Shown: positions 3,498 through 40,986, counted from the first letter of the stretch. The stretch is DNA of 64,000 bases from a virus (IMGVR_UViG_3300032243_001028:1-64000); one strand, 5' to 3'. Notes: generated by a model from the letters alone, not told the origin. Made by a program: numbers and translations.

Positions 3498-3584
3498 AAA
3501 ACTTTTATAAAAACTTGACAAACTTCTAACGAAAGACATAAACTTTCTAAGTAAGCCGAAATCAACCCTGAAAGGACACAAAAA

Positions 3585-4112: not shown

Positions 4113-4145
4113 TCTTATTACAACCCTGAAAGGACACAAAACAAA

Positions 4146-5183: not shown

Positions 5184-5208
5184 GTATTGTGTCCCCTAGC
5201 TTTTTGGC

Positions 5209-5242
5209 GAGGGTAGGTAGTTATAGTTGGCTACCTACCCTC
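5209..5242 (+). terminator. Stable hairpin/terminator
   Basis: GAGGGTAGGTAG...CTACCTACCCTC 12-bp stem. Confidence 0.6.
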
Positions 5243-5310
5243 AAATCAAAACTTGACAAAAACAAGATCAACTCTATAAAATCAAGATACGACAACTGAA
5301 AGGAAATCTT

Positions 5311-7155: not shown

Positions 7156-7304
7156 CACAATTTTCCGAGCAGGTCAAGTTTTTTATTTCCTTTCTCTTGA
7201 CCTGTTTGGAATACCAAAAAAAAAGATTTGGAAAAATACTTGACAAGCTCTTATTAGAGAAAGTAAAGTTGGAACTACAACCGAGAAATGAAAGGAACTA
7301 CCAA

Positions 7305-7631
7305 ATGTGCGATAACCCGACACACGATCACGATAACGAGGACGAGAGCTTATTGTCTGTTATCCAAAATGAAATCAACGAACCACAAGATGTAGCTGCG
7401 ACTGCTATCCAAATCTTTTGTGCGATTTCATCAGCATTAGTTCAGGCTGAAATGCCTAACCCTGCTATTTACAGAGCATTTGAGCCTATGAAACTTCTAG
7501 CTGAAAAGTTAGGTGATCAGGAACTAAACGACATAGTTATCACTTGCGAAATGGAACACCACGAAGTTATTACAAAAATGATTTCTAAAATGCGACACCC
7601 TGCTAGTAAGAGAAAGAAATGGGGTAAGTAA
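7305..7631 (+). CDS. Hypothetical protein
   Basis: Start reassigned to ATG 7305 after promoter 7240 and GAAAGGA SD. Confidence 0.65.
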   Translation: MCDNPTHDHDNEDESLLSVIQNEINEPQDVAATAIQIFCAISSALVQAEMPNPAIYRAFEPMKLLAEKLGDQELNDIVITCEMEHHEVITKMISKMRHPASKRKKWGK

Positions 7632-8434
7632 TGCCTAACTGGGTCTATAACACGCTAACTGTTTCAGGTAAGCCTGACGAGATAAAAGCCTTTACGGAAA
7701 AAGCTGATAAGTCAAGACCGAGAAGTGATGACGAGGGCAAGACCATTGAGTTAGAGGAAACTGACGGACTTTCTTTCTGGAACTTCATAGCACCACCCGA
7801 GGAAAAATACGATCTCTATTTCGCCATTTCTGACGGAACAGCAGACCAAACTTGGGGCTGGTATGGCTGGAACAGCGAGAACTGGGGAACTAAGTGGGAC
7901 GCTAATGATACGAGTATGTCCCCGTCCCCTGACGAGATAACCGAGGACACTGGGACAGTGATCTACTATTTCTCTACTGCTTGGAGTTATCCTGAACCTG
8001 TTGTTAGAGCTATGGCAGAACAACACCCGACACTACACTTTCACTTGCGTTCCGTTGAGGAACAAGGTTGGGGTGCTGAACTATCCGGAACTGACGGACA
8101 AATCTATACCGATACAACTTGGGACATACCGAGTAGTCATAAAGAGTGGGTTGATACCGACCAGGAGGGAAGTTGTGTTTGTGCCAACAACGACGACGAG
8201 GACGACTGGTATAAGGACTGTCCGAGAGATGATCAAGAGTTTATTGTTGTTATTCAAAAGTCTTACCGAGTAAGAACTAACACAGCAGAGAACGCTTACG
8301 AGCTTGCTATGGAACAGGGAAACGACCCTGACGAGCAAATGGAAGTTCTTGACGAAACGACAGCTTGGGTTCTTGACGATCAGGGAGTTAGACAATACCC
8401 GACCCTGAACAGCGAAGTTCCAAAGCTGGACTAA
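7631..8434 (+). CDS. DUF1281/YubB ferredoxin-like domain protein
   Basis: MPNWVYNTL, WYGW..ENWGTKW and FSTAWSYP signature motifs. Confidence 0.8.
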   Translation: MPNWVYNTLTVSGKPDEIKAFTEKADKSRPRSDDEGKTIELEETDGLSFWNFIAPPEEKYDLYFAISDGTADQTWGWYGWNSENWGTKWDANDTSMSPSPDEITEDTGTVIYYFSTAWSYPEPVVRAMAEQHPTLHFHLRSVEEQGWGAELSGTDGQIYTDTTWDIPSSHKEWVDTDQEGSCVCANNDDEDDWYKDCPRDDQEFIVVIQKSYRVRTNTAENAYELAMEQGNDPDEQMEVLDETTAWVLDDQGVRQYPTLNSEVPKLD

Positions 8435-8443
8435 AATAAACTT

Positions 8444-8550
8444 CGGTGAGTTTATGCTTTCTCTCACCGAGAACGGATAGTTATTTCCCCTCTACTATCC
8501 GTTCAGGGACTAGGTAATTTTTTGGTGGTTCTCTTTCTTACCTAGTCCCT
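8444..8550 (+). ncRNA. Three tandem hairpins with pyrimidine-rich loops (candidate sRNA)
   Basis: Stems CGGTGAG/CTCACCG, AACGGATAGT/ACTATCCGTT and AGGGACTAGGTAA/TTACCTAGTCCCT. Confidence 0.5.
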
Positions 8551-8619
8551 CTCTAAAACTTGACAAAACTTGACACAGGGGTATAGGCTAAACAAACCAC
8601 TAAACGAACAGGAAAAGAA

Positions 8620-8904
8620 ATGCTATTTAGACAAGCACTAGGACACATAATCGCTGAACACCGGCAAGACAAAAAGCTCACGCTACGCCAAACAGTAAAT
8701 AGAGGATCAGGGCGTATCTCGCTTACTTACCTATGGGAAATAGAAAAAGCTCGCAAAGAAGTCAGTAGTGAAATGCTGATAGAGGTTGCTCAATGTTTGG
8801 CTATTGAGCCTAGTGATCTGGTAATCAAAATCGGTATGGTTATGTGTGGTGGAGTTCCAAACTACTTGCCGATAGAACTTGACGAACAGCTTGTAAGTCT
8901 ATAA
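8620..8904 (+). CDS. XRE-family HTH regulator resembling actinobacterial ClgR
   Basis: LFRQALG..IAEHRQ....TLRQ......ISLTYLWEIEKARKEVSSEML. Confidence 0.75.
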   Translation: MLFRQALGHIIAEHRQDKKLTLRQTVNRGSGRISLTYLWEIEKARKEVSSEMLIEVAQCLAIEPSDLVIKIGMVMCGGVPNYLPIELDEQLVSL

Positions 8905-8935
8905 ACTGAACTTATCCAACTGAAAGGAAATCAAA

Positions 8936-9361
8936 ATGGATAAAGAAACTGAACCGCAAGCAACAGAAATGAAAATGTCCAACACTTGCTCTTGCGAGGT
9001 TGAGGACGAAACAACAGGCGAAATGACTTGGAGCAACGAATGTTTCGGTTGTTTTGAGGACGATAAGCAATACTTCACAGACGAGTTCCTAATGCCATAC
9101 CTGAACAGCAAGGGTTGGGACGAGGACACGATCATCAGAGTTGTTGGCGAGAAAATGAATTGGGACAACACTAGTGGTTGGACAGAAGTTCCTGCTAAGG
9201 ACTTACTAAAAGCTCTTGCCATAAATGGCGATTACACGCTAAGGGTTGAGATTACGCCTGAAAAGGAAATGGTAATTACCCGATCAAGCCACGATGAATA
9301 CGGAGCTAGTTTTAGATTTGAGTTATCACCCGAACAGGAATACAATTCTTATGAGGAATAA
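8936..9361 (+). CDS. Hypothetical protein
   Basis: GAAAGGA SD; 141 aa, acidic. Confidence 0.7.
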   Translation: MDKETEPQATEMKMSNTCSCEVEDETTGEMTWSNECFGCFEDDKQYFTDEFLMPYLNSKGWDEDTIIRVVGEKMNWDNTSGWTEVPAKDLLKALAINGDYTLRVEITPEKEMVITRSSHDEYGASFRFELSPEQEYNSYEE

Positions 9362-9690
9362 CTAAATAAACTTTTGCTAGGCATACCGAAACCTAAACCT
9401 AGAAGTTTTAGTTTTAGGTGGAGAACCAGAGGTGTCCGTTTAGGAACAATGTTGGTGGTATGGGGATTACTACCCTGAAAACCTAGTGAAATCCGACCAA
9501 TGTATGTCGCTAAACTACGCTTGTTCCTTAGCAAGAGAAAAAACTAAGGGTCTTGACTTCCAGACCTAAAAATTGTAGCCCTATTGGAGTTGATGGTAAT
9601 AACTATCCGGTTTTCTTTTTTTGTATTTTATTCTCTCTCCCTAAAAGAAAAAAATGCTAAACCTGAGTAAGTTGATAAACTGCTCACCTA
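9362..9690 (+). ncRNA. Candidate structured non-coding RNA ending in an anti-SD hairpin and a pseudoknot
   Basis: About 350-nt gap with no credible + strand ORF in a gene-dense region; multiple short stems. Confidence 0.4.
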
Positions 9691-9712
9691 AACTTCTTAG
9701 AAAAGGACAACT

Positions 9713-10012
9713 ATGAAATACGATCTCTACGCAAATGAGGACAACAACTTTATCCCTGATGTAGTCATTACCAAAGTTGAGGGAGCTTGGCTAGTAGATG
9801 CTGGCAGGGAAATCAGTTTTGAGTGGCGAGGAACTGAACAATGGTGTCAAATGGAAATTGACGAGGGCTTTTGGCTAATAACCGAAACTAAATACACTCC
9901 GGATTTTGAGGAGTGGCTTGACGAGAACCTAGACCAATACGACAGCTTAGAGTTTATGTTTGACCTAAACGATCTAGTGCCGAACCACTACAAGATAGAG
10001 CTTGATAAGTGA
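9713..10012 (+). CDS. Hypothetical acidic protein
   Basis: AAAGGA SD; ORF track. Confidence 0.65.
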   Translation: MKYDLYANEDNNFIPDVVITKVEGAWLVDAGREISFEWRGTEQWCQMEIDEGFWLITETKYTPDFEEWLDENLDQYDSLEFMFDLNDLVPNHYKIELDK

Positions 10013-10210
10013 TCAATTGCGAAACCTGTAAAGGCAAACCCCTAGTTTGTAAAATGTATGCTCACGCTAATCGGTGGTATTACTTCTGGTGGTGGCGTGG
10101 AGTTGATAATTTGTTTTGGAAAATCCACGAAAAGTTTTGTAAAGAAACTTGACTTGTATTTGATTAGCTGGTAATTTGGAAACATAACCCGAATGAAAGG
10201 AAAATAAAAA

Positions 10211-10729
10211 ATGGGTATGGATGTTTATGGAAAAAATCCAAAAAGCGAAAAGGGAACTTACTTCCGTAGAAATGTATGGGGCTGGCGACCACTATGGGAC
10301 TACTGCCTAGATCGACACACAGACCTTGCTGGCAAGGTAAAGAACGGACACACTAACGACGGTGATGGACTTGACGCTAACGACAGCGTGGAGCTTGCTC
10401 GCTTGCTTGTAAAAGATTTGTCTGACGGAACAGCAAGTACTTATGTAAAAGCAAGAAACATACACTTATCACTTTTGCCAAGAGAAAATTGCGAGTGGTG
10501 TCAAGGCACAGGTATTAGAACCGACAAGGTTGGCGTTGAGAACAAAATGTCTGATCGTGAATTATCACCGGATTTGGCTATTCTCTTAGGTAGAGAAAAG
10601 GGTTGGTGTAATGGTTGTAATGGCGAGGGCAAGAAAGATAGTTGGGAAACTAACTACGATTTGGAGCTTGATGACATAAAAGAGTTTGCCGAGTTTCTAA
10701 CCGATAGTGGTGGATTTGAGATTTGTTAG
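10211..10729 (+). CDS. Phage protein with DnaJ-like CxxCxGxG insertion
   Basis: MGMDVYG..YFRRNVWGWRPLW...CEWCQGTG...CNGCNGEG...SGGFEIC. Confidence 0.75.
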   Translation: MGMDVYGKNPKSEKGTYFRRNVWGWRPLWDYCLDRHTDLAGKVKNGHTNDGDGLDANDSVELARLLVKDLSDGTASTYVKARNIHLSLLPRENCEWCQGTGIRTDKVGVENKMSDRELSPDLAILLGREKGWCNGCNGEGKKDSWETNYDLELDDIKEFAEFLTDSGGFEIC

Positions 10730-10824
10730 TGAAACCACTAAACTAAGACCATAGGCAAACGCCTAAATACCTAAGCAAGTATCTAAACTGCTTACCAAAA
10801 AACCACCGATAACAAAGGAATAAA

Positions 10825-11232
10825 ATGGAATTTACAACAGCAGGGTTAGTAGCAACAACACCACGCCACATAGTAACGCAAGACGGATTAGAGATTACAA
10901 GTTTCCGTTTAGCAAGTAGTGTCAGGCGTTGGGATAGAACACAAAATCGCTGGGTTGATAGCGACACAAATTGGTTTACCGTTACTTCGTTTAGAACATT
11001 AGCGATAAATGTTGCTGTAAGTGTCAGCAAAGGTGATCGTGTAGTTGTTTCAGGTAAGTTGCGTGTTCGTGATTGGGACAATGGCGATAGAGCAGGAACA
11101 AGCGTTGAGATAGAAGCTGAAACAATTGGACACGACTTGACCTATGGCAACAGCACTTTCAGCAGAACAGCGAAACCTAGTGGCCACATAGAACCACCAG
11201 CCGACACCGTTGAGGATTTGACCAGAGATTAG
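10825..11232 (+). CDS. ssb: Single-stranded DNA-binding protein (actinobacterial type)
   Basis: GLVATTP..ITSFRLAS..RRWD...WVD..TNWFTV...SVSKGDRVVVSGKL.VRDW...VEIEAETIGHDL. Confidence 0.9.
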   Translation: MEFTTAGLVATTPRHIVTQDGLEITSFRLASSVRRWDRTQNRWVDSDTNWFTVTSFRTLAINVAVSVSKGDRVVVSGKLRVRDWDNGDRAGTSVEIEAETIGHDLTYGNSTFSRTAKPSGHIEPPADTVEDLTRD

Positions 11233-11246
11233 GCAACCGAAAAGAA

Positions 11247-11280
11247 TTCGCCAAACTAAAAACTTGGCGAATTTTTTTTT
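11247..11280 (+). terminator. Intrinsic terminator
   Basis: TTCGCCAA/TTGGCGAA stem plus T run. Confidence 0.75.
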
Positions 11281-11347
11281 GCCGACACGCTTGACTTACC
11301 GATACCGATAAGGAACAATAGAACTATCCCGAAACTAAGGAGAAAAA

Positions 11348-11731
11348 ATGGGAGAAATAAAGCAAGCCCTAGTTATCAAGACAGCAGGGGACATACAGGT
11401 TGTAAGCTTTACTGCCGAAACCGAATACGAAGTTATCAAGAAAGCCGTTGGTGGTTATTTAGAGATCGTTAGATTATCGCCAACTATGATTATGTGGACA
11501 AACGAGGAAGGTAAACTAGACAGACTACCTTACAACCACAGAGCAACTGCTATTTGGAATTATTATTTTGGAGCTACGGACATAATCGTTGGTGATGTAA
11601 TCCTTACAGGTGGAACTGATACTGACGGAAACTGCTTAGGACTAAGCTTGGCAGACGGAAACAAAATTCAGGTTTTAGTATCGGCTACTAGACTAGAAAA
11701 AGCCGAGATGAAAAAAGGGGAAACCAAGTGA
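11348..11731 (+). CDS. DUF3846 domain protein
   Basis: AVGGYLEIV...NEEGKL..LPYN.RAT...DIIVGDVILTG. Confidence 0.85.
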   Translation: MGEIKQALVIKTAGDIQVVSFTAETEYEVIKKAVGGYLEIVRLSPTMIMWTNEEGKLDRLPYNHRATAIWNYYFGATDIIVGDVILTGGTDTDGNCLGLSLADGNKIQVLVSATRLEKAEMKKGETK

Positions 11732-11997
11732 AAGTTGATTACGAACTATCAAGAATAGCGATCTGGAAAGTAGAGAACGCTAAGACAAAGTTGGAACTTA
11801 CTTATTCTGCCGAGTATGGAGCAGAGATTAGAGCAAGCCTGACTTACCGAACACTAAACGGAGCTTGGATAAAAACAAAAAAGTATTACAACCGAGCCGA
11901 GTGTCTAATGGATTTCGCTACCCTAACCAACAATAAAAAACTGATCAGGGTAATAGAAAGAACAGAGCAGTATCAAAGCTATTTAGAAAATAGTTAG
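11728..11997 (+). CDS. Hypothetical protein
   Basis: GTGA coupling with the upstream gene. Confidence 0.6.
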   Translation: MKVDYELSRIAIWKVENAKTKLELTYSAEYGAEIRASLTYRTLNGAWIKTKKYYNRAECLMDFATLTNNKKLIRVIERTEQYQSYLENS

Positions 11998-12111
11998 ACA
12001 CACCGAAAAAATAAATGAAAATAAACTTGACTTAGATTAGATAAAAGACTAAGTTAGAAGTATTGGAAGTTCCAATAGCCGAAATCGGCACAGAACTAAG
12101 GAAGTAAATAA

Positions 12112-12414
12112 ATGGAAAATCAAGAACCACAAGAAGTAAAAATCACAAGCAAAAAAGCAAAAGAAGCTTATGCCTTGCTAAAAACTATCAAGCTCCAAAT
12201 GGCAGAACTAGAAACACAAAAGGCACAGGCTACCGAAATCTTGGCACAGGCTCTAAATGGTGCCAAGCGTGGAGTTGTTGCTGGACAGGGTTCGTATGTT
12301 TTACAGGCAGGAAAGAACACGAGTTTTGATCGTGCCTTGATGAAAGAGAAGTTCCCTGTTGCGTTTGACGAGTGCCTAAGAACAACCGAATACGAATACA
12401 TAAAACTCGTATAG
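12112..12414 (+). CDS. Hypothetical coiled-coil protein
   Basis: Promoter at 12027, AAGGA SD. Confidence 0.7.
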   Translation: MENQEPQEVKITSKKAKEAYALLKTIKLQMAELETQKAQATEILAQALNGAKRGVVAGQGSYVLQAGKNTSFDRALMKEKFPVAFDECLRTTEYEYIKLV

Positions 12415-12426
12415 CAAGAAGTAGTG

Positions 12427-12475
12427 ATCCCCTAATAAACCGAACCGAGAGTTTGGATTAGGGGATTTACTTTTT
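12427..12475 (+). terminator. Intrinsic terminator
   Basis: ATCCCCTAAT...ATTAGGGGAT stem plus T-rich tail. Confidence 0.65.
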
Positions 12476-12525
12476 ACCAAGAAAAGTGGTAAGGTAGAAC
12501 TACCACCGAAAATGAAAGTAGAAAA

Positions 12526-12708
12526 ATGACCAAGTATGTAAAACACCTAACCAATGATGAACTACTAGAACGCCTAGCAGACGAGTTAGTTAGAACTCAC
12601 CGAGAGACCGCCATAGACCTAGGCTATTGGGAAACAGCAAGAGAAGTTGTAGAACGCTTTTACAGCGTGGAAGTAAAACTAACTATCAAGAAAGCAAAGA
12701 AAAAATGA
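12526..12708 (+). CDS. Hypothetical protein
   Basis: ORF track; purine-rich leader. Confidence 0.6.
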   Translation: MTKYVKHLTNDELLERLADELVRTHRETAIDLGYWETAREVVERFYSVEVKLTIKKAKKK

Positions 12709-13013
12709 CCGAACAGGAAAAGCCGAAAGGCGATTTTAGTGATCCAAAAAGTTTCTATTTCAATGACTACCTAAGCAACCACATAGGACACAAGCTTGAA
12801 GTTGTTGAGTATTGTTGTGGTGTGTGTGGAAAGACCACCGACTTTATGCTCCGTTGTTTCCAAGATGACATAGATGATACTTGTTCCAACGACCCTGCTG
12901 GTATTGCTAGGGAATGGGTGAAACCGCATTGCGAGTGTAATCACAGCCCTTGGACAGCAGACAAGATTTCTAATCTAAAAGAAAACTTGACAGAAAGTAA
13001 TCAAGCCGAGTAA
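12705..13013 (+). CDS. Cys-rich hypothetical protein
   Basis: Start reassigned to ATG 12705 (ATGA coupling). Confidence 0.6.
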   Translation: MTEQEKPKGDFSDPKSFYFNDYLSNHIGHKLEVVEYCCGVCGKTTDFMLRCFQDDIDDTCSNDPAGIAREWVKPHCECNHSPWTADKISNLKENLTESNQAE

Positions 13014-13046
13014 AGTGGAACTACCACCAAACATTAGGAGCAGAAA

Positions 13047-13295
13047 ATGGAAATGAACGAAGTTGAGCAGAAAGCAGTAAAGGCTATCTACAACGACTAC
13101 TACTCTAAGGAGATTAGTGCCGAACAAGCTTTACACGATCTAGAAATGCTTATCAACAATAATGAAGTTGTTGAGAGATGTCCGTTGTGTAAGGCACAGA
13201 TAGACGAGAATAATCCACTCATTGACGCTGAACGCTATTCTGTAAGCGACAAAATCGGTTATTGCGATAACTGCTATGACCCGACACCAGACTAA
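13047..13295 (+). CDS. Hypothetical protein with C-terminal CxxC..CxxC module (paralog of 18026..18223)
   Basis: CPLC....NPLIDAERY...DKIGYCDNCYDPTP. Confidence 0.7.
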   Translation: MEMNEVEQKAVKAIYNDYYSKEISAEQALHDLEMLINNNEVVERCPLCKAQIDENNPLIDAERYSVSDKIGYCDNCYDPTPD

Positions 13296-13513
13296 AAACA
13301 AGCTTGGCAGTTAGTCCCCCCTAACACTACTGCCAACGAGCAAGGGTTTCTCTCATTTCTCCCTTGCTCCACACCTAAGCAAGTGTATAAAAGGCTTATT
13401 TTTATTTAGGGAACATACCGGAAAATAAGCTTGACTAATCTTAGGTAGTTGTGGTTAGATTAGTTAGCACCAAAAAATAAAAAACGATCGACTAAAAATG
13501 AAAGGCAACAAAA

Positions 13514-13759
13514 ATGGAAGATTTTACCGACTTCACACCAAAGAACTTTTACTTTACAGCAGACGGAAACTATGGCGGTGATGAGATTATTCTTGTTGAT
13601 GTTAGCAAGCTTGCCGATAATCACTTACTAGACAGCGTTGAGAACCTAACTAGCGATAACTCTATGTTGAGTTTCGTAAAGTGGTTTATTGCTAATGACC
13701 ACAAGGAAGTTATTACCGCCATTGGTGAGCCTTGTGAAACTTGTAATGAGAACGCTTAG
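13514..13759 (+). CDS. Hypothetical protein
   Basis: Promoter at 13431, GAAAGG SD; YFTADGNYG motif. Confidence 0.7.
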   Translation: MEDFTDFTPKNFYFTADGNYGGDEIILVDVSKLADNHLLDSVENLTSDNSMLSFVKWFIANDHKEVITAIGEPCETCNENA

Positions 13760-13841
13760 ATAATCTTGCGAAAACCCCTAATCTGTGTTTAGATTAGATA
13801 GCACCAAAAAAATAAACCACCGAAAAAAAGGAAAAACAAAA

Positions 13842-14198
13842 ATGGGCGATAGAGCAACTATCCACATCACAAGCGAGCAGTTTGATACAGCCATAGAACT
13901 TTATGGGCATTGGTCAGGCACAGACAACGCTAAGGCAGTTGGTAATGTATTGGACAGAACGGGCAGAATAGGCGACCCGTCTTATCTAACAGCACAGCTA
14001 TTCTATGAATACGCAAAGTTAGGAAACTACAACGGAGAGTTGAGTTTCGGCATTAGAGCAATAAAGGCAGAGCCTAGCGACACTTTTGACGATAATCCTG
14101 TCGTTGTTGTAAATGCCGATACAGGTTCAGTTCAGTATGACGGAGAAACTTATACTGCCGAGCAGTTTGCGTTAGCGTATGCCGATAAGGTAAGTTAG
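13842..14198 (+). CDS. Phage hypothetical protein (MGDRA...LYGHWSG type)
   Basis: Start reassigned to ATG 13842 after AAAGGA. Confidence 0.75.
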   Translation: MGDRATIHITSEQFDTAIELYGHWSGTDNAKAVGNVLDRTGRIGDPSYLTAQLFYEYAKLGNYNGELSFGIRAIKAEPSDTFDDNPVVVVNADTGSVQYDGETYTAEQFALAYADKVS

Positions 14199-14265
14199 AA
14201 CTACACCGATAAAGGTGGTAATCCAAAAGGGTTATCACCTTTATCACTAACAAGGGAAAATAAAA

Positions 14266-14514
14266 ATGAACGAGCAACTAGAACAACTACAACAGAGATT
14301 ACTAGATCTAAAATCTAGACGAGCAGGGTTATTATCTCTATTGGAAGGCATTACCGAGCAGGTAAAGACAACACCGAATAAAGACTTAGCGTTTCTAGAT
14401 AGTTTGGTATCACAGCTAGAACAGGCAGCAATAAAGTCTAATGAACTAGGGGAGATGATTACCGAAACTAGATTAGACATTGCTAAGTTTAGAAAAGAGT
14501 TTGGCTTAGACTAG
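14266..14514 (+). CDS. Coiled-coil hypothetical protein
   Basis: AAGGGA SD; heptad leucines. Confidence 0.65.
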   Translation: MNEQLEQLQQRLLDLKSRRAGLLSLLEGITEQVKTTPNKDLAFLDSLVSQLEQAAIKSNELGEMITETRLDIAKFRKEFGLD

Positions 14515-14556
14515 CCAAGCTGGTAAAGTTAGAACACAACCAAAAAAGGAGAACTA

Positions 14557-14841
14557 ATGAAAACACTTGCCGAGTTCAAAAGAGTATTAGCCAAGCCTGA
14601 TACAACCCTAACGATTATCAAATGCCTAGACATAAAGACAGGTGAGGAAAAACCTCATAAGTTTCTAGATCAGGTTAGAACGATAGGGAAACTACAAACT
14701 AACAGCGTTGCCCTAAAAGATAGCACCGGCAAACTTTCGTGGTTAGACATAGATAAAGCTCGCAACTGGACATTTACCGATAATGTTGCGACCTATGCTG
14801 ATGAATACATTGCCATTGTTTATTTAGTAAAACACGCCTAA
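14557..14841 (+). CDS. Hypothetical protein
   Basis: AAGGAG SD. Confidence 0.7.
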   Translation: MKTLAEFKRVLAKPDTTLTIIKCLDIKTGEEKPHKFLDQVRTIGKLQTNSVALKDSTGKLSWLDIDKARNWTFTDNVATYADEYIAIVYLVKHA

Positions 14842-14927
14842 AAATAACTTGACTATTCCCGAACAGGTTTAGTAAAGTGAGAATAGTTAGGTAAAGTGCC
14901 TAACCTAAATGAGAGTAAGGAACTCAA

Positions 14928-15401
14928 ATGAACACAACACTTATCGCAGTAATGCCATTGGTTTATCTGGCTATCGTTGCTATTCCCCTAATCACCATAG
15001 ACATTAGAGAACACCGACTACCAAACAAGATTATTCTGCCGTTTATTGCTTTGGGTTTGGTTACGGACTTAGTTGCTAGTTTCGCTGGTGGAGAGTGGTG
15101 GAGATTAGGATTAGCTTTGGCAGTTGCTTTTGGTATCGGTATTGCTGGTATGGTTGCTAACTACTTTGACCTTATCGGTATGGGGGACATCAAACTATTC
15201 TTTGGTAGTTCCCTAGTAATCGGCTGGTTTGTCTGGTGGTTGCCGTTGGTATTGGTTGCCGTAACGCTCATTGTTGGTATTCTCGTAACGCTTTATCTGT
15301 TGGTGTTCCGTAAGGTTAGTGCTGGAACTAGCGTTCCACTAGGACCTTATGCCATTGTTCTATCCCTAGTTATTGGAACTTACGGAGTTATGAGTATCTA
15401 A
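14928..15401 (+). CDS. Type IV prepilin peptidase (peptidase A24, GxGD aspartyl protease)
   Basis: IDIREHRLPNKI, GMGDIKL, VPLGPY; multiple transmembrane helices. Confidence 0.85.
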   Translation: MNTTLIAVMPLVYLAIVAIPLITIDIREHRLPNKIILPFIALGLVTDLVASFAGGEWWRLGLALAVAFGIGIAGMVANYFDLIGMGDIKLFFGSSLVIGWFVWWLPLVLVAVTLIVGILVTLYLLVFRKVSAGTSVPLGPYAIVLSLVIGTYGVMSI

Positions 15402-15579
15402 GGAAGTAAGCCGAACCCCTTAGCCTAAATGGTTAGGGGGTTTAGCTTTGCCCGAAAAAAGACGATCTGGTGAAACCCGACACGCTAAAAAATAGTTGCC
15501 GATAAACTTGACTATTTCTATACGGAGATAGTAATCTTGGAGTAGTTAGGTAAATCGCCTAACAGATACGGAGATAAAA

Positions 15580-15792
15580 ATGAGTGGTTATGACATTGGC
15601 GGTGGCTATGACGGCTGGAAAACTGCTACCCCTTGGGATAATGAACGAGAGATTACTGTTTCGTTTGAGTGTGGCAAGTGTGAAGTTGAGAACGACAGCA
15701 TAGAAGTTGTAGTTGGTGGCAGGTCTGGAGATGTAGATGTTGAGTGTGCCGAGTGTGGTGAGAACAACAGCGTTAGTTTCGGTGATGACTAA
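15580..15792 (+). CDS. Zn-ribbon protein (paralog of 18501..18695)
   Basis: VSFECGKCEVEN...ECAECGENN. Confidence 0.7.
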   Translation: MSGYDIGGGYDGWKTATPWDNEREITVSFECGKCEVENDSIEVVVGGRSGDVDVECAECGENNSVSFGDD

Positions 15793-15900
15793 ATAGACTT
15801 CACTAGGCAAAAATCAAAACTGAGTAATCAAAACTGAGAGCCTAGTGAAACACCTGAGCAAGTGTATAAAAGGCTCACCTAAATCTTTAGAAAGGCAAAA

Positions 15901-16077
15901 GTGAAAGACAGAAAATCTAAGATCGCCTGTTGGTCTTGTGGCAAGCTTACGGAAGTAAAATACATTGGTGAGAACACACATAAACAAGAGTGCCGAGAGT
16001 GTAAAGAGTGGCGAGCAGAACGCTATGCTGTATTACAGGGGAACACCGATAAAGAGAGATTAGATAATGCTGAATAA
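15901..16077 (+). CDS. Small CxxC protein (58 aa, not in ORF track)
   Basis: GAAAGG SD, GTG start, CWSC...CREC. Confidence 0.5.
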   Translation: MKDRKSKIACWSCGKLTEVKYIGENTHKQECRECKEWRAERYAVLQGNTDKERLDNAE

Positions 16078-16269
16078 AATTGCTAGAAGTCTTAGAAGTA
16101 TTAGCGGAGTGCTAATGAATACAGGACACCGACTTAGTTGGTATGCGAGCAAGCTTGATACCAAGTCAAGAGATCGTAGAAACGCTAAAAAATAAAATGC
16201 GGATAAACTTGACAAAGTTTCCAAACAGCAACTAAACTGAATACATCAAGACGAAAAGAGGTGAAAAAA

Positions 16270-16497
16270 ATGGGAAAAAAAGTTGATACTTGGACTTGGT
16301 TCGTTGCTCAATACGAGCAACAGGGATACAAATCTCTAAACCAATTCGCTATCGCAACAGGCTTACAGAAGTCTAGCCTTAGCCGATACTTTCATAATCA
16401 ACGACACATTCCGTCAAATACTTTGGCGGTGCTATGTCGTGAGCTGGAAGTTTCTCCAACTGAATTACTGATCGCAATTGGCGAGAAAGTAAAGTAA
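16270..16497 (+). CDS. XRE/Cro-like HTH protein
   Basis: SLNQFAIATGLQKSSLSRYF....PS..TL..LC..LEVSP. Confidence 0.8.
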   Translation: MGKKVDTWTWFVAQYEQQGYKSLNQFAIATGLQKSSLSRYFHNQRHIPSNTLAVLCRELEVSPTELLIAIGEKVK

Positions 16498-16562
16498 GTG
16501 CCGAACCTGAGCAAGTTCTAAAAAGGCTCAACTAAAAACTAATAGAAAGTTGCGGTGAAGTT

Positions 16563-16754
16563 GTGAAAACATTTTTGGCAGTATTAGGTTTATGGTCTGC
16601 TGGTTGCGGTATCTATTATGGATTTATAGCCGACAATAATCAGCGAGCATTTGAGATTGGATTTACTTTGGCATTTCTGCTATTGTTTGTAGCGTTGCTA
16701 CTAGCAGTTGCCGAGCTTCCTAGATTTATTAGAAAGCGTAATAGGCGTAAATAG
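16563..16754 (+). CDS. Small 2-TM membrane protein
   Basis: Two hydrophobic stretches and a basic C-terminus. Confidence 0.55.
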   Translation: MKTFLAVLGLWSAGCGIYYGFIADNNQRAFEIGFTLAFLLLFVALLLAVAELPRFIRKRNRRK

Positions 16755-16901
16755 ACTTGGGAGAGGGTTTCTTTCATTTCCCCTCTGCCGAACACACCTG
16801 AACAAGTGTCTAAAAGGTTCATTTATTTTTTAGAGATCGGGAATTTTTTATGCCGATTAGAAGTTATTATTTATGTAATGACTAACTACAAAGGAGACAA
16901 A

Positions 16902-17060
16902 ATGAAAAGAACTAAATTCACACCAGAACGCCTTGCTGAGCTGGACAGACTAGACAGATTTAGAACCTATGACTTACTTTATAGGGCTATGCTTGCCGGT
17001 CTAATCCCCTTTGAGCCGAACCTAAGACTAAAGCGTATGGTCAGGGTAAAGAAGTCTTAG
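16902..17060 (+). CDS. Small basic hypothetical protein
   Basis: AAGGAG SD before ATG 16902. Confidence 0.55.
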   Translation: MKRTKFTPERLAELDRLDRFRTYDLLYRAMLAGLIPFEPNLRLKRMVRVKKS

Positions 17061-17171
17061 AGAGATTTCTAGAGATCCAAAAAATAAATACCGACACGCT
17101 TGCTTATTTCCATTTGGAGATGCTAAAGTTGAAGTAGTTAGGTGAAGTGCCTAGCAGTTACGGAGTAAAAA

Positions 17172-17450
17172 ATGGAAAAGAAAGAATACCGAGTTTATTG
17201 GTGGATTGAGATTTACCCTTTCGGCTATGACAGAGATTGCGAACTCAGGAACATTGAACTAATGGGAACTGTTTTTGCCGAAGATGAAGATGATGCTATG
17301 GATCAGGTTAGAGAAGATAACGAGATTATTGGTGATGATTTCATTGGTTACCCTGACCCTGATTATGTTGATAGTCACCCCGACATTGAGATAGTTTGGA
17401 CTGGCGATATGTCTGCCGAGTTAGTTTTGGACTTGACTAAGCAGGACTAA
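17172..17450 (+). CDS. Acidic hypothetical protein
   Basis: Own promoter-hairpin cassette, GGAG SD. Confidence 0.7.
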   Translation: MEKKEYRVYWWIEIYPFGYDRDCELRNIELMGTVFAEDEDDAMDQVREDNEIIGDDFIGYPDPDYVDSHPDIEIVWTGDMSAELVLDLTKQD

Positions 17451-17465
17451 ACCCCGAGAGTAGAA

Positions 17466-17500
17466 AGCCCTTAGCCGAAAGGCTAGGGGTTTTTTATTTT
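17466..17500 (+). terminator. Intrinsic terminator
   Basis: CCCTTAGCC-GAAA-GGCTAGGGG plus T run. Confidence 0.8.
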
Positions 17501-17595
17501 TGGACACGCCAGAATAATCTTGACTAAATGCCGATAAGTGATCTAGGATTTTAGTAGTTAGGTAATCTCCTAATCAAAATAAAGAAAGTAGAAAA

Positions 17596-17874
17596 ATGAA
17601 ACTACAAGTTACGAAGTCAAGCCCAGTCTGGCAAAAGATTATTGCCGATAATAAAGAGTGGTTTTCTAAATCAACACTGGAGTTTTTCAAATCAACTATT
17701 TTTTGGTCAAGCCTGAAAGAAACTGAACAGGGTCTAAAGTTTGTAACTAGCGAATGGAACTACCAGCAGGACACTAAGGTTTTTACTATCAGGCTAGTCA
17801 CCGATACAGGCATAGAAACTATTAGTGAATACGGACAATACCCTAGCCTTGTAGAAGCCTTACGAGCCTTATAG
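17596..17874 (+). CDS. Hypothetical protein
   Basis: Cassette gene; WFSKSTLEFFKS..FVTSE motif. Confidence 0.7.
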   Translation: MKLQVTKSSPVWQKIIADNKEWFSKSTLEFFKSTIFWSSLKETEQGLKFVTSEWNYQQDTKVFTIRLVTDTGIETISEYGQYPSLVEALRAL

Positions 17875-18025
17875 AGATCGTGAAACTGAACCCTTGCCGA
17901 AGCTCAGGCAGGGGTTTAGTTTTATCTAGACACGCCAAAATAAAATACTTAGAAACTTGACGGAATAAAACTTGCGGTGATAGAGTTTTATTAGTTAGGC
18001 AAGTTGCCGAACAGAAATGAGAAAA

Positions 18026-18223
18026 ATGGAAAACTTTCTAGACATCAACAAGGTTGCTAAAATTGTAGGACTGCCAGCAACTAACGAAGTCTGCCCTAGT
18101 TGTGATGAACTTATTACGGCTACTAATCCCCTGATAGATACTGAACGCTATACGGCTAATGATAAGACTGGCTATTGCGATAGTTGTTATGACCCGACCC
18201 CTTACTATCCCAAGATAGATTAG
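18026..18223 (+). CDS. CxxC..CxxC protein (paralog of 13047..13295)
   Basis: CPSC....NPLIDTERY...DKTGYCDSCYDPTP. Confidence 0.7.
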   Translation: MENFLDINKVAKIVGLPATNEVCPSCDELITATNPLIDTERYTANDKTGYCDSCYDPTPYYPKID

Positions 18224-18231
18224 GGGGGATT

Positions 18232-18396
18232 ATGTTTATAGAGAAACCAGCTGACGCTGAACAAGCGGAACAATTCGCATTAGGACTAATCCAAGAACCA
18301 AAAGATTACGGAACATTAGTTTTAGTTCCTTGTAAGCACAAGGTATTCTGCCGAACTCACGGAAGTTTCTGGATCAGGAAAAGATTTAGAAAATAG
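18232..18396 (+). CDS. Small hypothetical protein (54 aa, not in ORF track)
   Basis: GGGGGA SD; MFIEKPADAEQ...RFRK. Confidence 0.45.
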   Translation: MFIEKPADAEQAEQFALGLIQEPKDYGTLVLVPCKHKVFCRTHGSFWIRKRFRK

Positions 18397-18500
18397 AAAC
18401 ACGCAAAAAAAAATTATTTATTTATTTGACTATTTCTATACGGAGATGCTAAAGTTGGATTAGTTAGGCAAACGACCTAACGGAAAATGGAGATGTAAAG

Positions 18501-18695
18501 ATGTGGGAATACGGAGATGATGAAGTTTCTGTTGTTGTGTCTTTCACTTGCGACAAATGCGAGTATGAAAATGAAGACAGCGAGCAAACAATAGGCAGGG
18601 GTGAAGGTCAGCACATAGTAATCTGTGATGAGTGTGATACCGAGAACACGATCATCATTGAGCCACCTGAGCCACCTGAGCCTTGGGAAGACTAA
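18501..18695 (+). CDS. Zn-ribbon protein (paralog of 15580..15792)
   Basis: VSFTCDKCEYEN...ICDECDTEN. Confidence 0.7.
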   Translation: MWEYGDDEVSVVVSFTCDKCEYENEDSEQTIGRGEGQHIVICDECDTENTIIIEPPEPPEPWED

Positions 18696-18818
18696 TCCTA
18701 AACACCTGAGCAAGTGTCTAAACTGCTTATTTTTATTTGCTACATACTTGACTATTTCCAGCTGGAACTGGTAAAGTTTTATTAGTTAGGAAAAATCACC
18801 TAGCGGAAATGAGAAAAA

Positions 18819-18998
18819 ATGTTTTACTTACAGACAACATCAACCCTAGTAAGACTTTCTAATGGAGAAACTTTTACTCAATGTGAAATCTGCGGTAGAT
18901 GTTATGAGAACGAACACTGGGACAGAACCAAGATAACCAGGAACGACTGGGCTTGGACTTGCCACCACAGCGACCAGGATACCGGAATACTAGAATAA
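18819..18998 (+). CDS. Small Cys/His protein (59 aa, not in ORF track)
   Basis: Follows promoter-hairpin at 18748; MFYLQTT...CEICGRC...TGILE. Confidence 0.55.
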   Translation: MFYLQTTSTLVRLSNGETFTQCEICGRCYENEHWDRTKITRNDWAWTCHHSDQDTGILE

Positions 18999-19195
18999 TC
19001 CGGTTGCCGATAATCCCCTGGTAGAGATACCGGGGGTTTATCTTTACCAGGTGCGACCTGGTGCCAGGATCTAAAATCCAGGGACAAGCTTGCCAGGATA
19101 AATTATTAGACACGCCAGGAAAAGATTTGACTTTTCCCGGGTGGAACTGGTAGATTTTTATTAGTCAGGTAAAACCCCCTGGCAGAAAGAAAAAA

Positions 19196-19543
19196 ATGAA
19201 CCAGGAACAGCTAGAACTATTTGAGATGATAGTTGATGATGCCGGTATGTCTATTAACTACTGGGCAAGCACAGCAGAACACAGCACAGAAAAGCAAACT
19301 TACCAGATCACTTTATTACCGGACTGTGTTGATGAAACTGCCGGTGTAGTAGATAAGACAATCTCTTACCAGGATTTATTAGACGCTACCAGGAAGCTTG
19401 CTAGCGGTGAAGTAAGCGTGAACCCGGCCACAAAGTCAGTCTGCCAGGCAATTATTAGCGACCCGGCAGATGTAGATTATGACGCTACTGATACGGACGT
19501 TATTGTCCAGGTTGCTATGTTTGGTGAAATTGTATTCGGCTAG
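19196..19543 (+). CDS. Phage hypothetical protein
   Basis: INYWA...DYDATDTDVIVQVAMFGEIVFG C-terminal motif. Confidence 0.75.
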   Translation: MNQEQLELFEMIVDDAGMSINYWASTAEHSTEKQTYQITLLPDCVDETAGVVDKTISYQDLLDATRKLASGEVSVNPATKSVCQAIISDPADVDYDATDTDVIVQVAMFGEIVFG

Positions 19544-40782: not shown

Positions 40783-40986
40783 ATGGACGAAAATAAAAAG
40801 TCTGAGGCCGAGCCTATGCTTACCATAGAGTCTTACAGAAATGATGAGCACATTGTTAAGAAAGTGCCGTACTCATCTCTATCGATTGAGCAATTAGTAA
40901 ATCTAACTTTAGAAGGCTCTAAAGCCGCCAACGAAGAGTTGCAACGCTTAATCGGAGTAGACATCCTTAAGGATGGCGGAGAATAG
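40783..40986 (+). CDS. Small hypothetical protein
   Basis: AGGA SD; stop overlaps the start of giant 2. Confidence 0.6.
   Translation: MDENKKSEAEPMLTIESYRNDEHIVKKVPYSSLSIEQLVNLTLEGSKAANEELQRLIGVDILKDGGE

What the first reader, a model, noticed from the sequence alone, without database searches (positions are those of the whole stretch)
9659..18729. Seven 28-nt H-type RNA pseudoknots with compensatory changes in both stems
Seen: consensus NNAC-C-TRARYA-A-GTNN-N-(T)AAA(A/C)-K-GYTYA, always 28 nt. Stem 1 varies as ACAC/GTGT (13371, 15850, 16794, 18702), ATAC/GTAT (10767), GAAC/GTTC (16503) and AAC/GTT (9659). Stem 2 varies as TGAGC/GCTCA, TAAGC/GCTTA and TGAAC/GTTCA, with G-U variants at 9659 and 18702. 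The one-C loop 1 and A-rich loop 3 are conserved. All copies are intergenic on the sense strand, three followed by U-tracts and four upstream of an RBS (one before ssb). Inference: a compact RNA module acting as an exonuclease roadblock that stabilises processed RNAs, a protein-binding tag, or a minimal ligand sensor. I cannot assign it to a known family.
Basis: seen in the sequence. Interest (0 to 1): 0.85.

Follow-up and report, generated by a model that had tools for sequence, protein, structure and literature searches.

The report
Widespread 28-nt phage mRNA pseudoknot
Seven copies of a tiny, strongly conserved RNA pseudoknot sit between early genes of this freshwater phage; the same knot occurs in phages and prophages of many bacterial phyla, is in no RNA family database searched, and probably marks and protects the ends of messages.

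Summary
There are seven 28-nt copies, all on the + strand at 9659-18729, and no others in the 135-kb phage.

The motif reaches far beyond this phage. Hits span Firmicutes, Bacteroidota, cyanobacteria, Alphaproteobacteria, Actinobacteria and CPR, and include about 20 cultured phages.

Both stems covary. A pair the search pattern did not constrain is Watson-Crick in 129 of 130 viral copies, using four pair types. G·U outnumbers A·C, which places the RNA on the sense strand.

The refined model is stem 1 of 4-6 bp, a one-C loop 1, stem 2 of 5 bp plus A11·U23/A12·C22, an A-rich loop 3, and an 8-nt G-free tail.

The knot follows genes of any function. The upstream stop codon peaks 5-6 nt before stem 1 and never lies closer than 4 nt. 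Some copies abut tRNAs.

Rfam 15 has no match and the literature searches found nothing. The architecture (4-1-7-4-5-7) equals that of the T4 gene-32 leader pseudoknot, which heads T4's most stable mRNA.

Best reading (about 0.4): a nuclease-resistant boundary cap on phage transcripts, sometimes doubling as a terminator hairpin. The function is inferred, not shown.

The parts
9659..9686 (+). Pseudoknot copy 1 (AAC/GTT stem 1; U10·G24 wobble; CT class). It lies 26 nt upstream of the ATG at 9713 and follows a ~300-nt non-coding stretch.
   Evidence: (42.9 bits)
10767..10794 (+). Pseudoknot copy 2 (ATAC/GTAT; TAAGC/GCTTA). It lies 30 nt upstream of the SSB gene.
   Evidence: (43.2 bits)
10825..11232 (+). 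SSB gene downstream of copy 2.
   Evidence: phrog_44, E 4.4e-17
13338..13369 (+). 9-bp hairpin with a conserved U/C-rich loop, immediately 5' of copy 3.
13371..13398 (+). Pseudoknot copy 3 (ACAC/GTGT; AG class), followed by a T-tract at 13399-13407.
   Evidence: 41.8 bits
13431..13461 (+). Sigma-70-like promoter match that follows copy 3 and its T-tract.
15850..15877 (+). Pseudoknot copy 4 (ACAC/GTGT; TGAGC/GCTCA; AG class). It lies 23 nt upstream of the GTG at 15901.
   Evidence: 46.5 bits
16503..16530 (+). Pseudoknot copy 5 (GAAC/GTTC). The stop codon of the HTH-regulator ORF 16261-16497 ends 5 nt before it.
16757..16791 (+). Second copy of the conserved-loop hairpin, immediately 5' of copy 6.
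16794..16821 (+). Pseudoknot copy 6 (TGAAC/GTTCA), followed by a T-tract at 16822-16831.
   Evidence: 38.8 bits
18702..18729 (+). Pseudoknot copy 7 (G7·U27 wobble). The stop of ORF 18501-18695 ends 6 nt before it, and a T-tract follows at 18730-18738.
   Evidence: (47.7 bits)
18748..18777 (+). Sigma-70-like promoter match (TTGACT-N18-TAAAGT) that follows copy 7 and its T-tract.

Best explanation
The element is a cis-acting, self-contained H-type RNA pseudoknot on the sense transcript. It consists of stem 1 of 4-6 bp whose two junction pairs are invariant A-U and C-G, a one-nucleotide loop 1 (C), stem 2 of 5 Watson-Crick pairs extended by A11·U23 and A12·C22 (or tandem purine pairs in the AG class), and an A-rich loop 3 lying along stem 1. 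Eight G-free nucleotides follow it. I read it as a generic boundary mark between RNA units, whether mRNA cistrons or tRNAs. It sits as close to the upstream stop codon as it can without being melted by the terminating ribosome, so it stays folded on translated messages. After termination or an endonucleolytic cut in the A/U-rich spacers, it would form a compact, hard-to-unwind end: a structured 5' end for the downstream RNA, as in T4 gene-32 mRNA, and a 3' block for the upstream RNA. Where a U-tract follows, stem 2 may also act as the hairpin of an intrinsic terminator. Shown here: the structure, the strand, the spread and the positional rules. Inferred: nuclease resistance, processing, and any effect on half-life or termination.
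For: Structure:
- Pair (2,15), which the search pattern did not constrain, is Watson-Crick in 129 of 130 non-redundant viral copies (GC 70, CG 32, AT 24, TA 3).
- Pair (7,27) is GC 95, AT 27, GT 7, AC 1. Pair (9,25) is GC 121, AT 7, GT 2, AC 0.
- On a 150-sequence alignment, 97.0% of cells pair against 85.8% in shuffles (0 of 500 reach the observed value). Slid controls give 24-38%.
- The top mutual-information pairs are exactly the pseudoknot pairs.

Position:
- A same-strand ORF ends within 60 nt 5' of the knot in 141 of 194 copies. An opposite-strand ORF ends at the 3' side in 34 of 194.
- The first base of the upstream stop codon falls at position -8 (24 copies) or -7 (26 copies) among 160 copies that have an upstream frame of 60 codons or more. 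None falls at -5 to -3. That spacer of 5-6 nt is the reach of a ribosome with the stop codon in its A site (established knowledge of frameshift spacers).
- The knot directly precedes tRNAs on the same strand, with gaps of 2, 3, 4, 7 and 11 nt, so it is not tied to translation initiation.
- Flanking genes are functionally unrelated.

In the window:
- Three copies with U-tracts; two of them (13371, 18702) are followed by promoter-like sites. The other four are intercistronic.

Precedent:
- The T4 gene-32 leader read folds into the same 4-1-7-4-5-7 = 28-nt architecture, with a tail that is G-free for 7 nt.
- In passages of PMC3014915, all gene-32 mRNAs are cut by RNase E at -71, which is 4 nt before the pseudoknot at -67. 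The upstream part is rapidly degraded, and the processed mRNA is the most stable T4 message.
Against: - No RNA end mapping or half-life data exist for any copy, and no RNA run was available.
- The nested folding energy of the knot is modest: -5.1 to -7.7 kcal/mol, z-scores -0.1 to -3.8. Any unusual stability would have to come from tertiary contacts that I cannot compute.
- An ordinary hairpin would do as a roadblock. The roadblock reading does not by itself explain why about 15 nucleotides, and a U-R-A-R-Y strand with only transition covariation, are held constant across phyla.
- The knot is tied to the upstream stop, but its distance to the downstream start is broad with no peak. This fits a 3' element better than a 5' cap.
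- U-tract copies are not enriched at operon ends: a convergent gene follows in 7 of 36, against 23 of 173 for copies without a U-tract. In Firmicutes they sit mid-operon, just before scaffold and capsid genes, and once 11 nt before a tRNA. A strong terminator role is therefore doubtful there.
Confidence: 0.4

Rival explanations
1. The knot is an operator or aptamer for a specific partner. It would bind a protein or machine conserved across bacteria or widely shared among phages, such as an SSB-type single-strand binder as in T4 gene 32, ribosomal protein S1 or the 30S subunit, RNA polymerase, an RNase or a defence protein. The G-free tail would be the adjoining single-stranded binding track. 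It would act in cis as a translational operator, or in trans as an abundant early decoy.
For: - About 15 invariant nucleotides and a purine/pyrimidine-fixed stem-2 strand are held constant across phyla.
- The 8 nt after the knot have 1-8% G, against about 20% further on.
- A/T-rich words such as TTAAA are about 2-fold enriched downstream: 42 sequences against 22 at +300. This recalls the UUAA(A) repeats of the T4 operator (PMC3014915 passages).
- One window copy precedes ssb, and seven copies lie in early transcripts.
- Weinberg et al. 2017 (PMC5737381, passages) state that multi-phylum RNAs with a pseudoknot and many conserved nucleotides typically perform sophisticated tasks.
Against: - SSB is not among the recurrent downstream families.
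- Carriers range from 38-kb siphophages to N4-like and crAss-like phages, and I identified no shared phage protein.
- The distance to the next start codon is not fixed.
- Copies directly in front of tRNAs make a translational operator unlikely there.
Confidence: 0.2
2. The knot is a transcription terminator or attenuator. It would form in the RNA exit channel and stop or pause RNA polymerase: fully where a U-tract follows, partially elsewhere. This would set expression gradients along short early operons.
For: - Three of 7 window copies carry T-tracts directly after stem 2, and two of these are followed by promoter-like sites.
- A T-rich tail follows 38 of 226 copies overall.
- The position just after stop codons is typical of terminators.
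Against: - 188 of 226 copies lack a T-rich tail.
- U-tract copies are followed by a co-directional gene within 200 nt in 20 of 36 cases. In Firmicutes these are the scaffold and capsid genes, which need high expression.
- Stem 2 alone is weak, and the terminator scan did not call any copy.
Confidence: 0.1
3. The knot is a very small self-cleaving or processing-directing RNA. It would cut at one of its borders, or be cut there by RNase P or another universal enzyme, and so separate RNA units in the way tRNA punctuation does.
For: - Nucleotide conservation at catalytic-core level in only 28 nt, across phyla.
- The knot lies at unit boundaries and inside tRNA arrays, 2-4 nt from tRNA 5' ends.
- The coaxial stack of about 11-13 layers is close in length to a tRNA acceptor/T arm (inference).
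Against: - Nothing tested here bears on cleavage.
- No known ribozyme is this small (recalled).
- No conserved nucleotide lies just outside the knot, and there is no conserved CCA-like tail.
Confidence: 0.07
4. The knot is a riboswitch-like sensor of a global small molecule or ion, built like preQ1-I or SAM-II pseudoknots.
For: It has the same topology as the small pseudoknot riboswitches (recalled), a conserved junction and loops, and some copies sit next to U-tracts or Shine-Dalgarno sequences.
Against: - No Rfam riboswitch matches, even at E up to 10.
- There is no association with any pathway.
- Stem 2 does not contain the SD, and the knot appears in front of tRNAs.
- The knot looks complete without a ligand (inference).
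Confidence: 0.05
5. The knot is a recoding signal (read-through or frameshift at the upstream stop) or a DNA-level site (promoter or recombination hotspot).
For: - The stop-5-6 nt-pseudoknot spacing is that of recoding signals.
- Loop 3 with stem 2 often reads TAAACT, which resembles a -10 hexamer, and BPROM-based annotation of phage B236 places a promoter there.
- Metagenome contigs share only the knot, and their similarity to the window breaks at its borders.
Against: - Stops near the knot are mostly TAA: 54 of 82, with TGA only 9. I saw no slippery sites.
- The read-through frame runs a median of 12 codons. The 15 of 84 longer cases are, in the examples I checked, downstream genes with their own SD.
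- Both stop phases (-8 and -7) are used equally.
- A promoter cannot explain covariation in two stems or the excess of G·U over A·C.
- No -35 is conserved, and the AG class (59 of 226) lacks the final T of a -10 hexamer.
Confidence: 0.04

Closest known systems
T-even phage gene 32 mRNA leader pseudoknot (translational operator; 5' end of the RNase E-processed, very stable gene-32 mRNA)
   Same: - It has the same H-type architecture. Read from the T4 record, it is stem 1 of 4 bp, loop 1 of 1 nt, stem 2 of 7 bp, no loop 2, and loop 3 of 5 nt, giving 28 nt. The motif here has stem 2 of 5 Watson-Crick pairs plus 2 extra layers.
- An A/U-rich tail follows that is G-free for 7 nt.
- It is phage-encoded, on the sense strand, upstream of an RBS, and one window copy precedes ssb.
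- Its processing and stability context is given in PMC3014915 (passages).
   Different: - There is no sequence relationship. The covariance model finds nothing at the T4 gene-32 leader at E up to 1.
- The T4 knot is single-copy and gene-specific. This family is multi-copy, precedes or follows genes of any function as well as tRNAs, and spans many host phyla.
Luteovirus-type minimal frameshifting pseudoknots (recalled from memory)
   Same: A compact pseudoknot of about 28 nt, with a very short loop 1 containing C and an A-rich loop lying in the minor groove of stem 1. The spacing of 5-8 nt from the ribosomal A-site codon is also shared.
   Different: The motif here lies after stop codons, mostly TAA, has no slippery site and no extended frame, and is intergenic.
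Intercistronic stabilisers and processing sites of phage and bacterial operons: T7 RNase III sites, REP elements, 5' stabilisers of Bacillus phage SP82 (recalled)
   Same: Repeated structured elements between genes of one transcript, thought to define and protect RNA ends.
   Different: Those are plain stem-loops without cross-phylum sequence conservation. This is a sequence-conserved pseudoknot.
preQ1-I riboswitch and other small pseudoknot aptamers (recalled)
   Same: H-type topology with an A-rich 3' loop, and a similar size.
   Different: No covariance-model match, no link to queuosine or any other pathway, and the SD is not part of stem 2.
Viral exoribonuclease-resistant RNAs (xrRNA)
   Same: The proposed way of working: a folded viral RNA that stops processive exonucleases without a protein cofactor. 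PMC5760640 appeared in a search listing whose term counts include RNase J; I saw the listing only.
   Different: xrRNAs are larger, ring-forming folds of eukaryotic RNA viruses. No resistance has been shown for this knot.

Membership tests
T-even gene 32 leader pseudoknot | H-type pseudoknot with 1-nt loop 1 crossing a ~7-layer stem 2, and a short loop along a 4-5-bp stem 1 | tested here: met
   The T4 leader read folds as 4-1-7-4-5-7. The motif here has stem 2 of 5 Watson-Crick pairs plus A11·U23 and A12·C22. This is supported by the association of the CT/AG classes with position 10.
T-even gene 32 leader pseudoknot | Sequence homology to the T4/T2/RB69 operator | tested here: not met
   Model R1 run on the whole T4 record gives only two noise hits elsewhere (E 0.5 and 0.7) and none at the gene-32 leader.
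T-even gene 32 leader pseudoknot | Sits in the leader of the phage ssDNA-binding protein gene | tested here: not met
   Only 1 of 7 window copies precedes ssb. SSB is not among the top 25 downstream families for 150 copies.
T-even gene 32 leader pseudoknot | Bound by the SSB protein, giving autogenous translational repression | not testable with these tools
   Needs binding and reporter assays.
preQ1-I riboswitch (RF00522) | Match to the family covariance model | tested here: not met
   The window gives 0 hits at gathering scores. A 91-nt search at E up to 10 gives only two unrelated noise hits.
preQ1-I riboswitch (RF00522) | Upstream of queuosine/preQ1 genes | tested here: not met
   The downstream families are scaffold, thioredoxin, nucleases, endolysins and unknowns.
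Intrinsic (Rho-independent) terminator | Stable stem directly followed by a U-tract | tested here: inconclusive
   T-rich tails follow 3 of 7 window copies and 38 of 226 overall. Stem 2 alone is weak, and the consensus scan called none of the copies.
Intrinsic (Rho-independent) terminator | Located at ends of transcription units | tested here: inconclusive
   In the window, two of the three U-tract copies (13371, 18702) are followed by promoter-like sites. Elsewhere, 20 of 36 U-tract copies are followed within 200 nt by a co-directional gene.
Programmed -1 frameshift / read-through stimulator | Slippery site or leaky stop 5-8 nt upstream, and an extended reading frame | tested here: not met
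   TAA is the stop in 54 of 82 cases and I saw no slippery heptamers. The median extension is 12 codons, and the long cases checked are separate genes.
Type III toxin-antitoxin RNA (ToxI-like pseudoknot repeats) | Tandem head-to-tail repeats next to an endoribonuclease toxin gene | tested here: not met
   The copies lie 291-2604 nt apart, separated by genes. A toxin gene was not searched for.
Sigma-70 promoter | Conserved -35 and -10 hexamers at DNA level, with no need for base pairing | tested here: not met
   There is no conservation where a -35 would lie, the AG class lacks the last T of a -10 hexamer, and two stems covary.
xrRNA | Ring-like fold that halts 5'-3' exonucleases | not testable with these tools
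   No 3-D modelling or enzyme assay was available.

The most novel reading that the evidence does not exclude
The knot is not a passive roadblock but a biochemically active module used by phages of nearly all bacterial phyla. It would be either the smallest natural self-processing RNA, or a 28-nt aptamer for a universally conserved host machine (ribosome, RNA polymerase, a core RNase) or a widespread defence protein. Early transcripts would express it in many copies to take over or blind the host.
Probability: 0.2. Interest if true: 0.95.

Novelty: new variant of a known kind. Interest (0 to 1): 0.8.

Why it matters
A 28-nt RNA fold with about 15 fixed nucleotides is shared by phages of Firmicutes, Bacteroidota, cyanobacteria, Proteobacteria, Actinobacteria and CPR bacteria. 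That would make it one of the most widespread phage-specific RNA elements, yet Rfam has no model for it. It offers a simple, testable handle on how phages punctuate and stabilise polycistronic RNA. It would generalise the 40-year-old, supposedly unique T4 gene-32 pseudoknot. It also gives annotation pipelines a marker for gene boundaries and transcript strand in uncultivated phages. If it resists nucleases or binds a conserved host factor, it would be a ready-made 28-nt part for RNA engineering.

Tried and rejected
- Rfam 15: the whole window at gathering scores gave 0 hits. A 91-nt search at E up to 10 gave only a snoRNA and an M-box noise hit.
- Megablast of window 9000-19000 against INPHARED phages gave no match.
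- One knot variant searched against 5,426 E. coli genomes by blastn gave no match. This was one variant only and does not show absence.
- Sequencing runs: no RNA holder was listed.
- Laid DNA contigs of four runs showed contigs that share only the knot, and small indels just 3' of knots. Only 40 of 805 differences were printed, so substitution rates inside and outside the knot could not be compared.
- An eighth candidate at 30866-30900 (minus strand, 17.8 bits) was rejected. It lies antisense inside the giant ORF and only its tail resembles the motif.
- The relaxed pattern scan returned mostly chance AT-rich matches: 68 new instances, of which about 12 are near-variants.
- Literature: six short strings of the motif in DNA and RNA spelling found only primers and unrelated text. 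Five topical searches and passages of five papers describe no such motif.
- Supplements were not seen. Those of PMC10690425 (10,006 candidate viral RNAs) and PMC5737381 may list the motif under a number.
- I considered and dropped a link to Rho (cyanophages carry the knot; absence of Rho in cyanobacteria is recalled) and likenesses to boxA and the ribosomal decoding site. Those likenesses were recalled only and not tested.

Full report
**1. The observation**

The window is the first 64 kb of a 135,096-bp IMG/VR virus record with direct terminal repeats.

All matches are on the + strand with no mismatch, at the stated places. Shuffles expect 0.00 matches at up to 2 mismatches and 0.09 at up to 3.
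- The rest of the genome holds no further copy, and the reversed-pattern control is empty.
- Aligning the copies with 60-nt flanks shows that similarity is confined to the 28 nt.
- The stem variants, the three T-tracts (after 13398, 16821 and 18729) and the four copies 23-32 nt before start codons are as described.
- The ORF after copy 10767 is an SSB (phrog_44, E 4e-17).

**2. Spread beyond this phage**

It hit the limit again in one-genome-per-species GTDB contigs.
- The GTDB record titles include Lactobacillaceae, Clostridia, Staphylococcus, Bacillaceae, Bacteroidota, cyanobacteria, Pelagibacteraceae, Rhizobiales, Campylobacter, Saccharibacteria and other CPR, and Omnitrophota.
- My rough estimate of the pattern's information (about 35 bits) predicts only a handful of chance hits in IMG/VR and a few tens in the 596-Gb genome set. 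In line with this, some bacterial hits do not pair.
- After removing duplicates there are 248 instances: 130 viral (including the window) and 118 bacterial. Of these, 226 pass a pairing filter, 129 of them viral.
- Short blastn queries found the motif in these cultured phages:
  - Lentibacter ICBM1-3
  - Celeribacter P12053L
  - C. tetani phiCT19406B
  - Anoxybacillus A403
  - L. helveticus phages
  - Moraxella Mcat1, Mcat2, Mcat4 and Mcat5
  - crAss-like cr52_1, cr7_1 and cr124_1
  - Corynebacterium P1201
  - N4-like DSS3phi2 and Ruegeria phages
  - Staphylococcus StB12, IME1323_01 and phage 37
  - Lactobacillus phig1e, KC5a, Lj771, jlb1 and Bacchae
  - Cylindrospermopsis phages
- Five bacterial genomes carry one or two copies each.
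- In 301 genomes of the family of the L. agilis hit, 19 have one strict match each, and the reversed control has none. That is the pattern of a sporadic prophage-borne element.
- For ten bacterial loci from different phyla, the largest ORF hit a phage family in 6 of 10 (helicases, an integrase, an SSB and two families of unknown function).

**3. Structure**

I number the 28 nt from 1 to 28. The search pattern starts at position 3.

Stem 1:
- Pair (2,15) was not constrained by the pattern. It is Watson-Crick in 129 of 130 viral copies, with four pair types (GC 70, CG 32, AT 24, TA 3).
- Pair (1,16) pairs in 96 of 130 copies.

Stem 2:
- The pattern allowed R and Y independently, yet pair (7,27) is GC 95, AT 27, GT 7, AC 1, and pair (9,25) is GC 121, AT 7, GT 2, AC 0.
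- G·U exceeds A·C (9 to 1 in these two pairs), so the pairing strand is the sense RNA.

Overall statistics:
- On a 150-row alignment, 97.0% of cells pair against 85.8% in shuffles (0 of 500 reach the observed value). The covariation score is 0.362 against 0.152. Partners slid by 1-3 columns pair in only 24-38% of cells. The rows were chosen by the pattern and the pairing filter, which favours pairing; the unfiltered figures are those.
- Mutual information over positions -8 to +40 ranks (2,15), (22,23), (1,16), (7,27) and (9,25) first. It finds no further partner.

Refinements to the model:
- Positions 22-23 are dimorphic: CU in 156 of 226 copies and AG in 59 of 226.
- U10·G24 is tolerated almost only in the CU class (51 of 156, against 3 of 59 in the AG class). 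This fits an extra A11-U23 pair that lengthens stem 2.
- Loop 3 can be longer. With both stem-2 strands fixed, the gap is 9 nt in 86 of 122 instances, but 8 and 10-16 nt also occur. The AAACU/AAAAG stretch stays next to stem 2, and insertions fall at the stem-1 end.
- Relaxing stem 2 produced no transversion covariation among about 60 true copies. The 5' strand stays U-R-A-R-Y. G24-to-A variants occur five times.
- The eight nucleotides after the knot hold 1-8% G, against about 20% beyond.
- Nested folding alone is unremarkable (-5.1 to -7.7 kcal/mol).
- Staphylococcal phietaviruses carry a degenerate form with a 3-4-bp stem 2. It lies in an intergenic region that looks better conserved in the alignment than the roughly 70%-identical flanking genes.

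**4. Context**

- A same-strand ORF of at least 60 codons ends within 60 nt 5' of the knot in 141 of 194 copies. An opposite-strand ORF ends at the 3' side in 34 of 194.
- Among 160 of 226 copies with such an upstream frame, the first base of the stop codon lies at -8 in 24 and at -7 in 26. It lies at -9, -10 and -11 in 10, 8 and 7 copies, and at -6 in 7. It never lies at -5 to -3. The spacer is therefore 5-6 nt with a hard lower limit.
- The stops near the knot are TAA 54, TAG 19 and TGA 9 of 82.
- The distance from the knot to the next SD and start codon is broad, with no peak (142 of 226 scorable).
- Neighbouring genes are of every kind:
  - Upstream: Hsp20 (6), minor head proteins (5), ribonucleotide reductase (3), HNH nucleases.
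  - Downstream: scaffold (12), thioredoxin-like (4), nucleases, endolysins.
  - Most neighbours have no assigned function (150 proteins scanned on each side).
- Same-strand tRNAs follow the knot after 2, 3, 4, 7 and 11 nt in five loci, and precede it by 2, 21 and 35 nt in three.
- A Cylindrospermopsis phage has three consecutive small genes each followed by a knot, in an inverted duplication.
- In the window, 18 of the genome's 24 + strand matches to TTGAC-N16-19-TAnnnT lie between 3.5 and 19.2 kb. The region therefore looks like a set of short host-polymerase units.
  - Knots with U-tracts at 13371 and 18702 are followed by such promoter-like sites, at 13431 and 18748.
  - The knots at 9659, 10767, 15850 and 16503 are internal to units.

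**5. What it is not**

- It matches no Rfam 15 family.
- It is not a pathway riboswitch, given the gene contexts above.
- It is not a recoding signal. The stops are strong, both phases are used, the median read-through frame is 12 codons, and the 15 of 84 longer cases include downstream genes with their own SD.
- It is not a tandem ToxI-like array: the copies are 291-2604 nt apart.
- It is not a promoter. No -35 is conserved, the AG class lacks a proper -10 hexamer, and two stems covary. The TAACT-like loop does explain a BPROM call in phage B236.
- It is not generally a classical terminator. A T-rich tail follows 38 of 226 copies. Those copies are no more often at convergent junctions (7 of 36 against 23 of 173), and in Firmicutes they lie just before scaffold genes.

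**6. Closest known**

- The T4 gene-32 leader, read from the T4 record, folds as stem 1 of 4 bp, loop 1 of 1 nt, stem 2 of 7 bp, and loop 3 of 5 nt. That is 28 nt, the same plan as this motif, and it is followed by a tail that is G-free for 7 nt and by UUAAA repeats.
- Passages of the T4 review PMC3014915 state the following:
  - gp32 binds this pseudoknot, 67 nt upstream of the start, and spreads over the A+U-rich tract.
  - All gene-32 mRNAs are cut by RNase E at -71.
  - The upstream part is rapidly degraded.
  - The processed mRNA is the most stable in T4.
- The model built here does not find the T4 knot. The likeness is one of architecture and possibly of working, not of family.
- Fremin et al. 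2023 (PMC10690425, passages) note that Rfam has no model of the gene-32 structure, and they list 12 candidates upstream of GP32 genes. I could not see their supplements.

**7. Mechanism**

The hard limit of the stop-to-knot spacer equals the stretch of mRNA held inside a ribosome with the stop in its A site (established from frameshift-signal spacing). The knot is therefore kept folded on translated messages and packed as tightly as that allows. Four further facts bear on function:
- it occurs between any two RNA units, tRNAs included;
- it is tied to the end of the upstream unit;
- a single-stranded, G-free tail follows it;
- there is the T4 precedent.

Together these make a nuclease-resistant boundary cap the best-supported reading, and I give it about 0.4. 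I also hold the following:
- The three window copies with U-tracts probably also help termination.
- The depth of sequence conservation is the main fact this reading does not explain. It keeps a specific-partner model (0.2) and an active-RNA model (ribozyme 0.07, sensor 0.05) alive.

Nothing about function was measured here.

**8. Novelty**

- No Rfam model exists, and no paper was found by sequence strings or by topic.
- Large candidate lists whose supplements I could not open may contain the motif unnamed.
- I rate it a new, very widespread sequence family of a known structural kind, used in a way not described before.

Noticed in passing
window 30846-40550 and 40986-59741 (+): Two giant ORFs of 3,234 and 6,251 aa lie downstream of the portal gene. 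The first combines RNase_T exonuclease, UvrD helicase, ArdC-N and MPTase-PolyVal domains, as a polyvalent protein does. The first 5,000 aa of the second, which is all that was scanned, show RNase_T and GNAT hits.
   Followed up: partly
window 13338-13369 and 16757-16791 (+): Two copies of a strong hairpin lie directly 5' of two of the three knots that have U-tracts. Its 13-14-nt U/C-rich loop is conserved (GGGTTTCTYTCATTTCYCC, exact in both). There are no other copies in the window.
   Followed up: partly
window 3500-19200 (+): A dense cluster of sigma-70-like sites of the form TTGAC-N16-19-TAnnnT: 18 of the genome's 24 + strand matches lie here. This suggests many short early transcription units.
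   Followed up: partly
L319 2495-2585 (S. aureus phage 37), L392, L393, L394: In staphylococcal phietaviruses and phage IPLA7, the spacer between the minor head protein and scaffold genes holds a knot or a degenerate knot, a U-tract, a conserved CGTGG...CACG hairpin and the SD. It looks better conserved in the alignment than the flanking genes, which are about 70% identical. Lactobacillaceae prophages show the same layout.
   Followed up: partly
W01 = MH636380.1 76589-77292 and 98633-99336: Cylindrospermopsis raciborskii virus carries three knots after three consecutive small genes. The block is present twice in inverted orientation, with identical scores.
   Followed up: no
window 16504-16538, 18697-18728, 9620-9652: Freshwater metagenome contigs laid on the window include pieces that match only a knot and run on into unrelated sequence at both sides. 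Joints also link different knot copies. The knot is thus shared by other phages in the same waters and confuses assemblies.
   Followed up: no
window 9362-9658: About 300 nt with no + strand ORF of 40 aa or more lie between ORF 8936-9361 and knot copy 1. The stretch is T-rich near its end. Its function was not examined.
   Followed up: no
L395 2410-2412 (T4 record): In T4, the stop codon of the homing endonuclease gene segG lies inside stem 2 of the gene-32 pseudoknot. Every ribosome terminating on segG must therefore open that knot.
   Followed up: no
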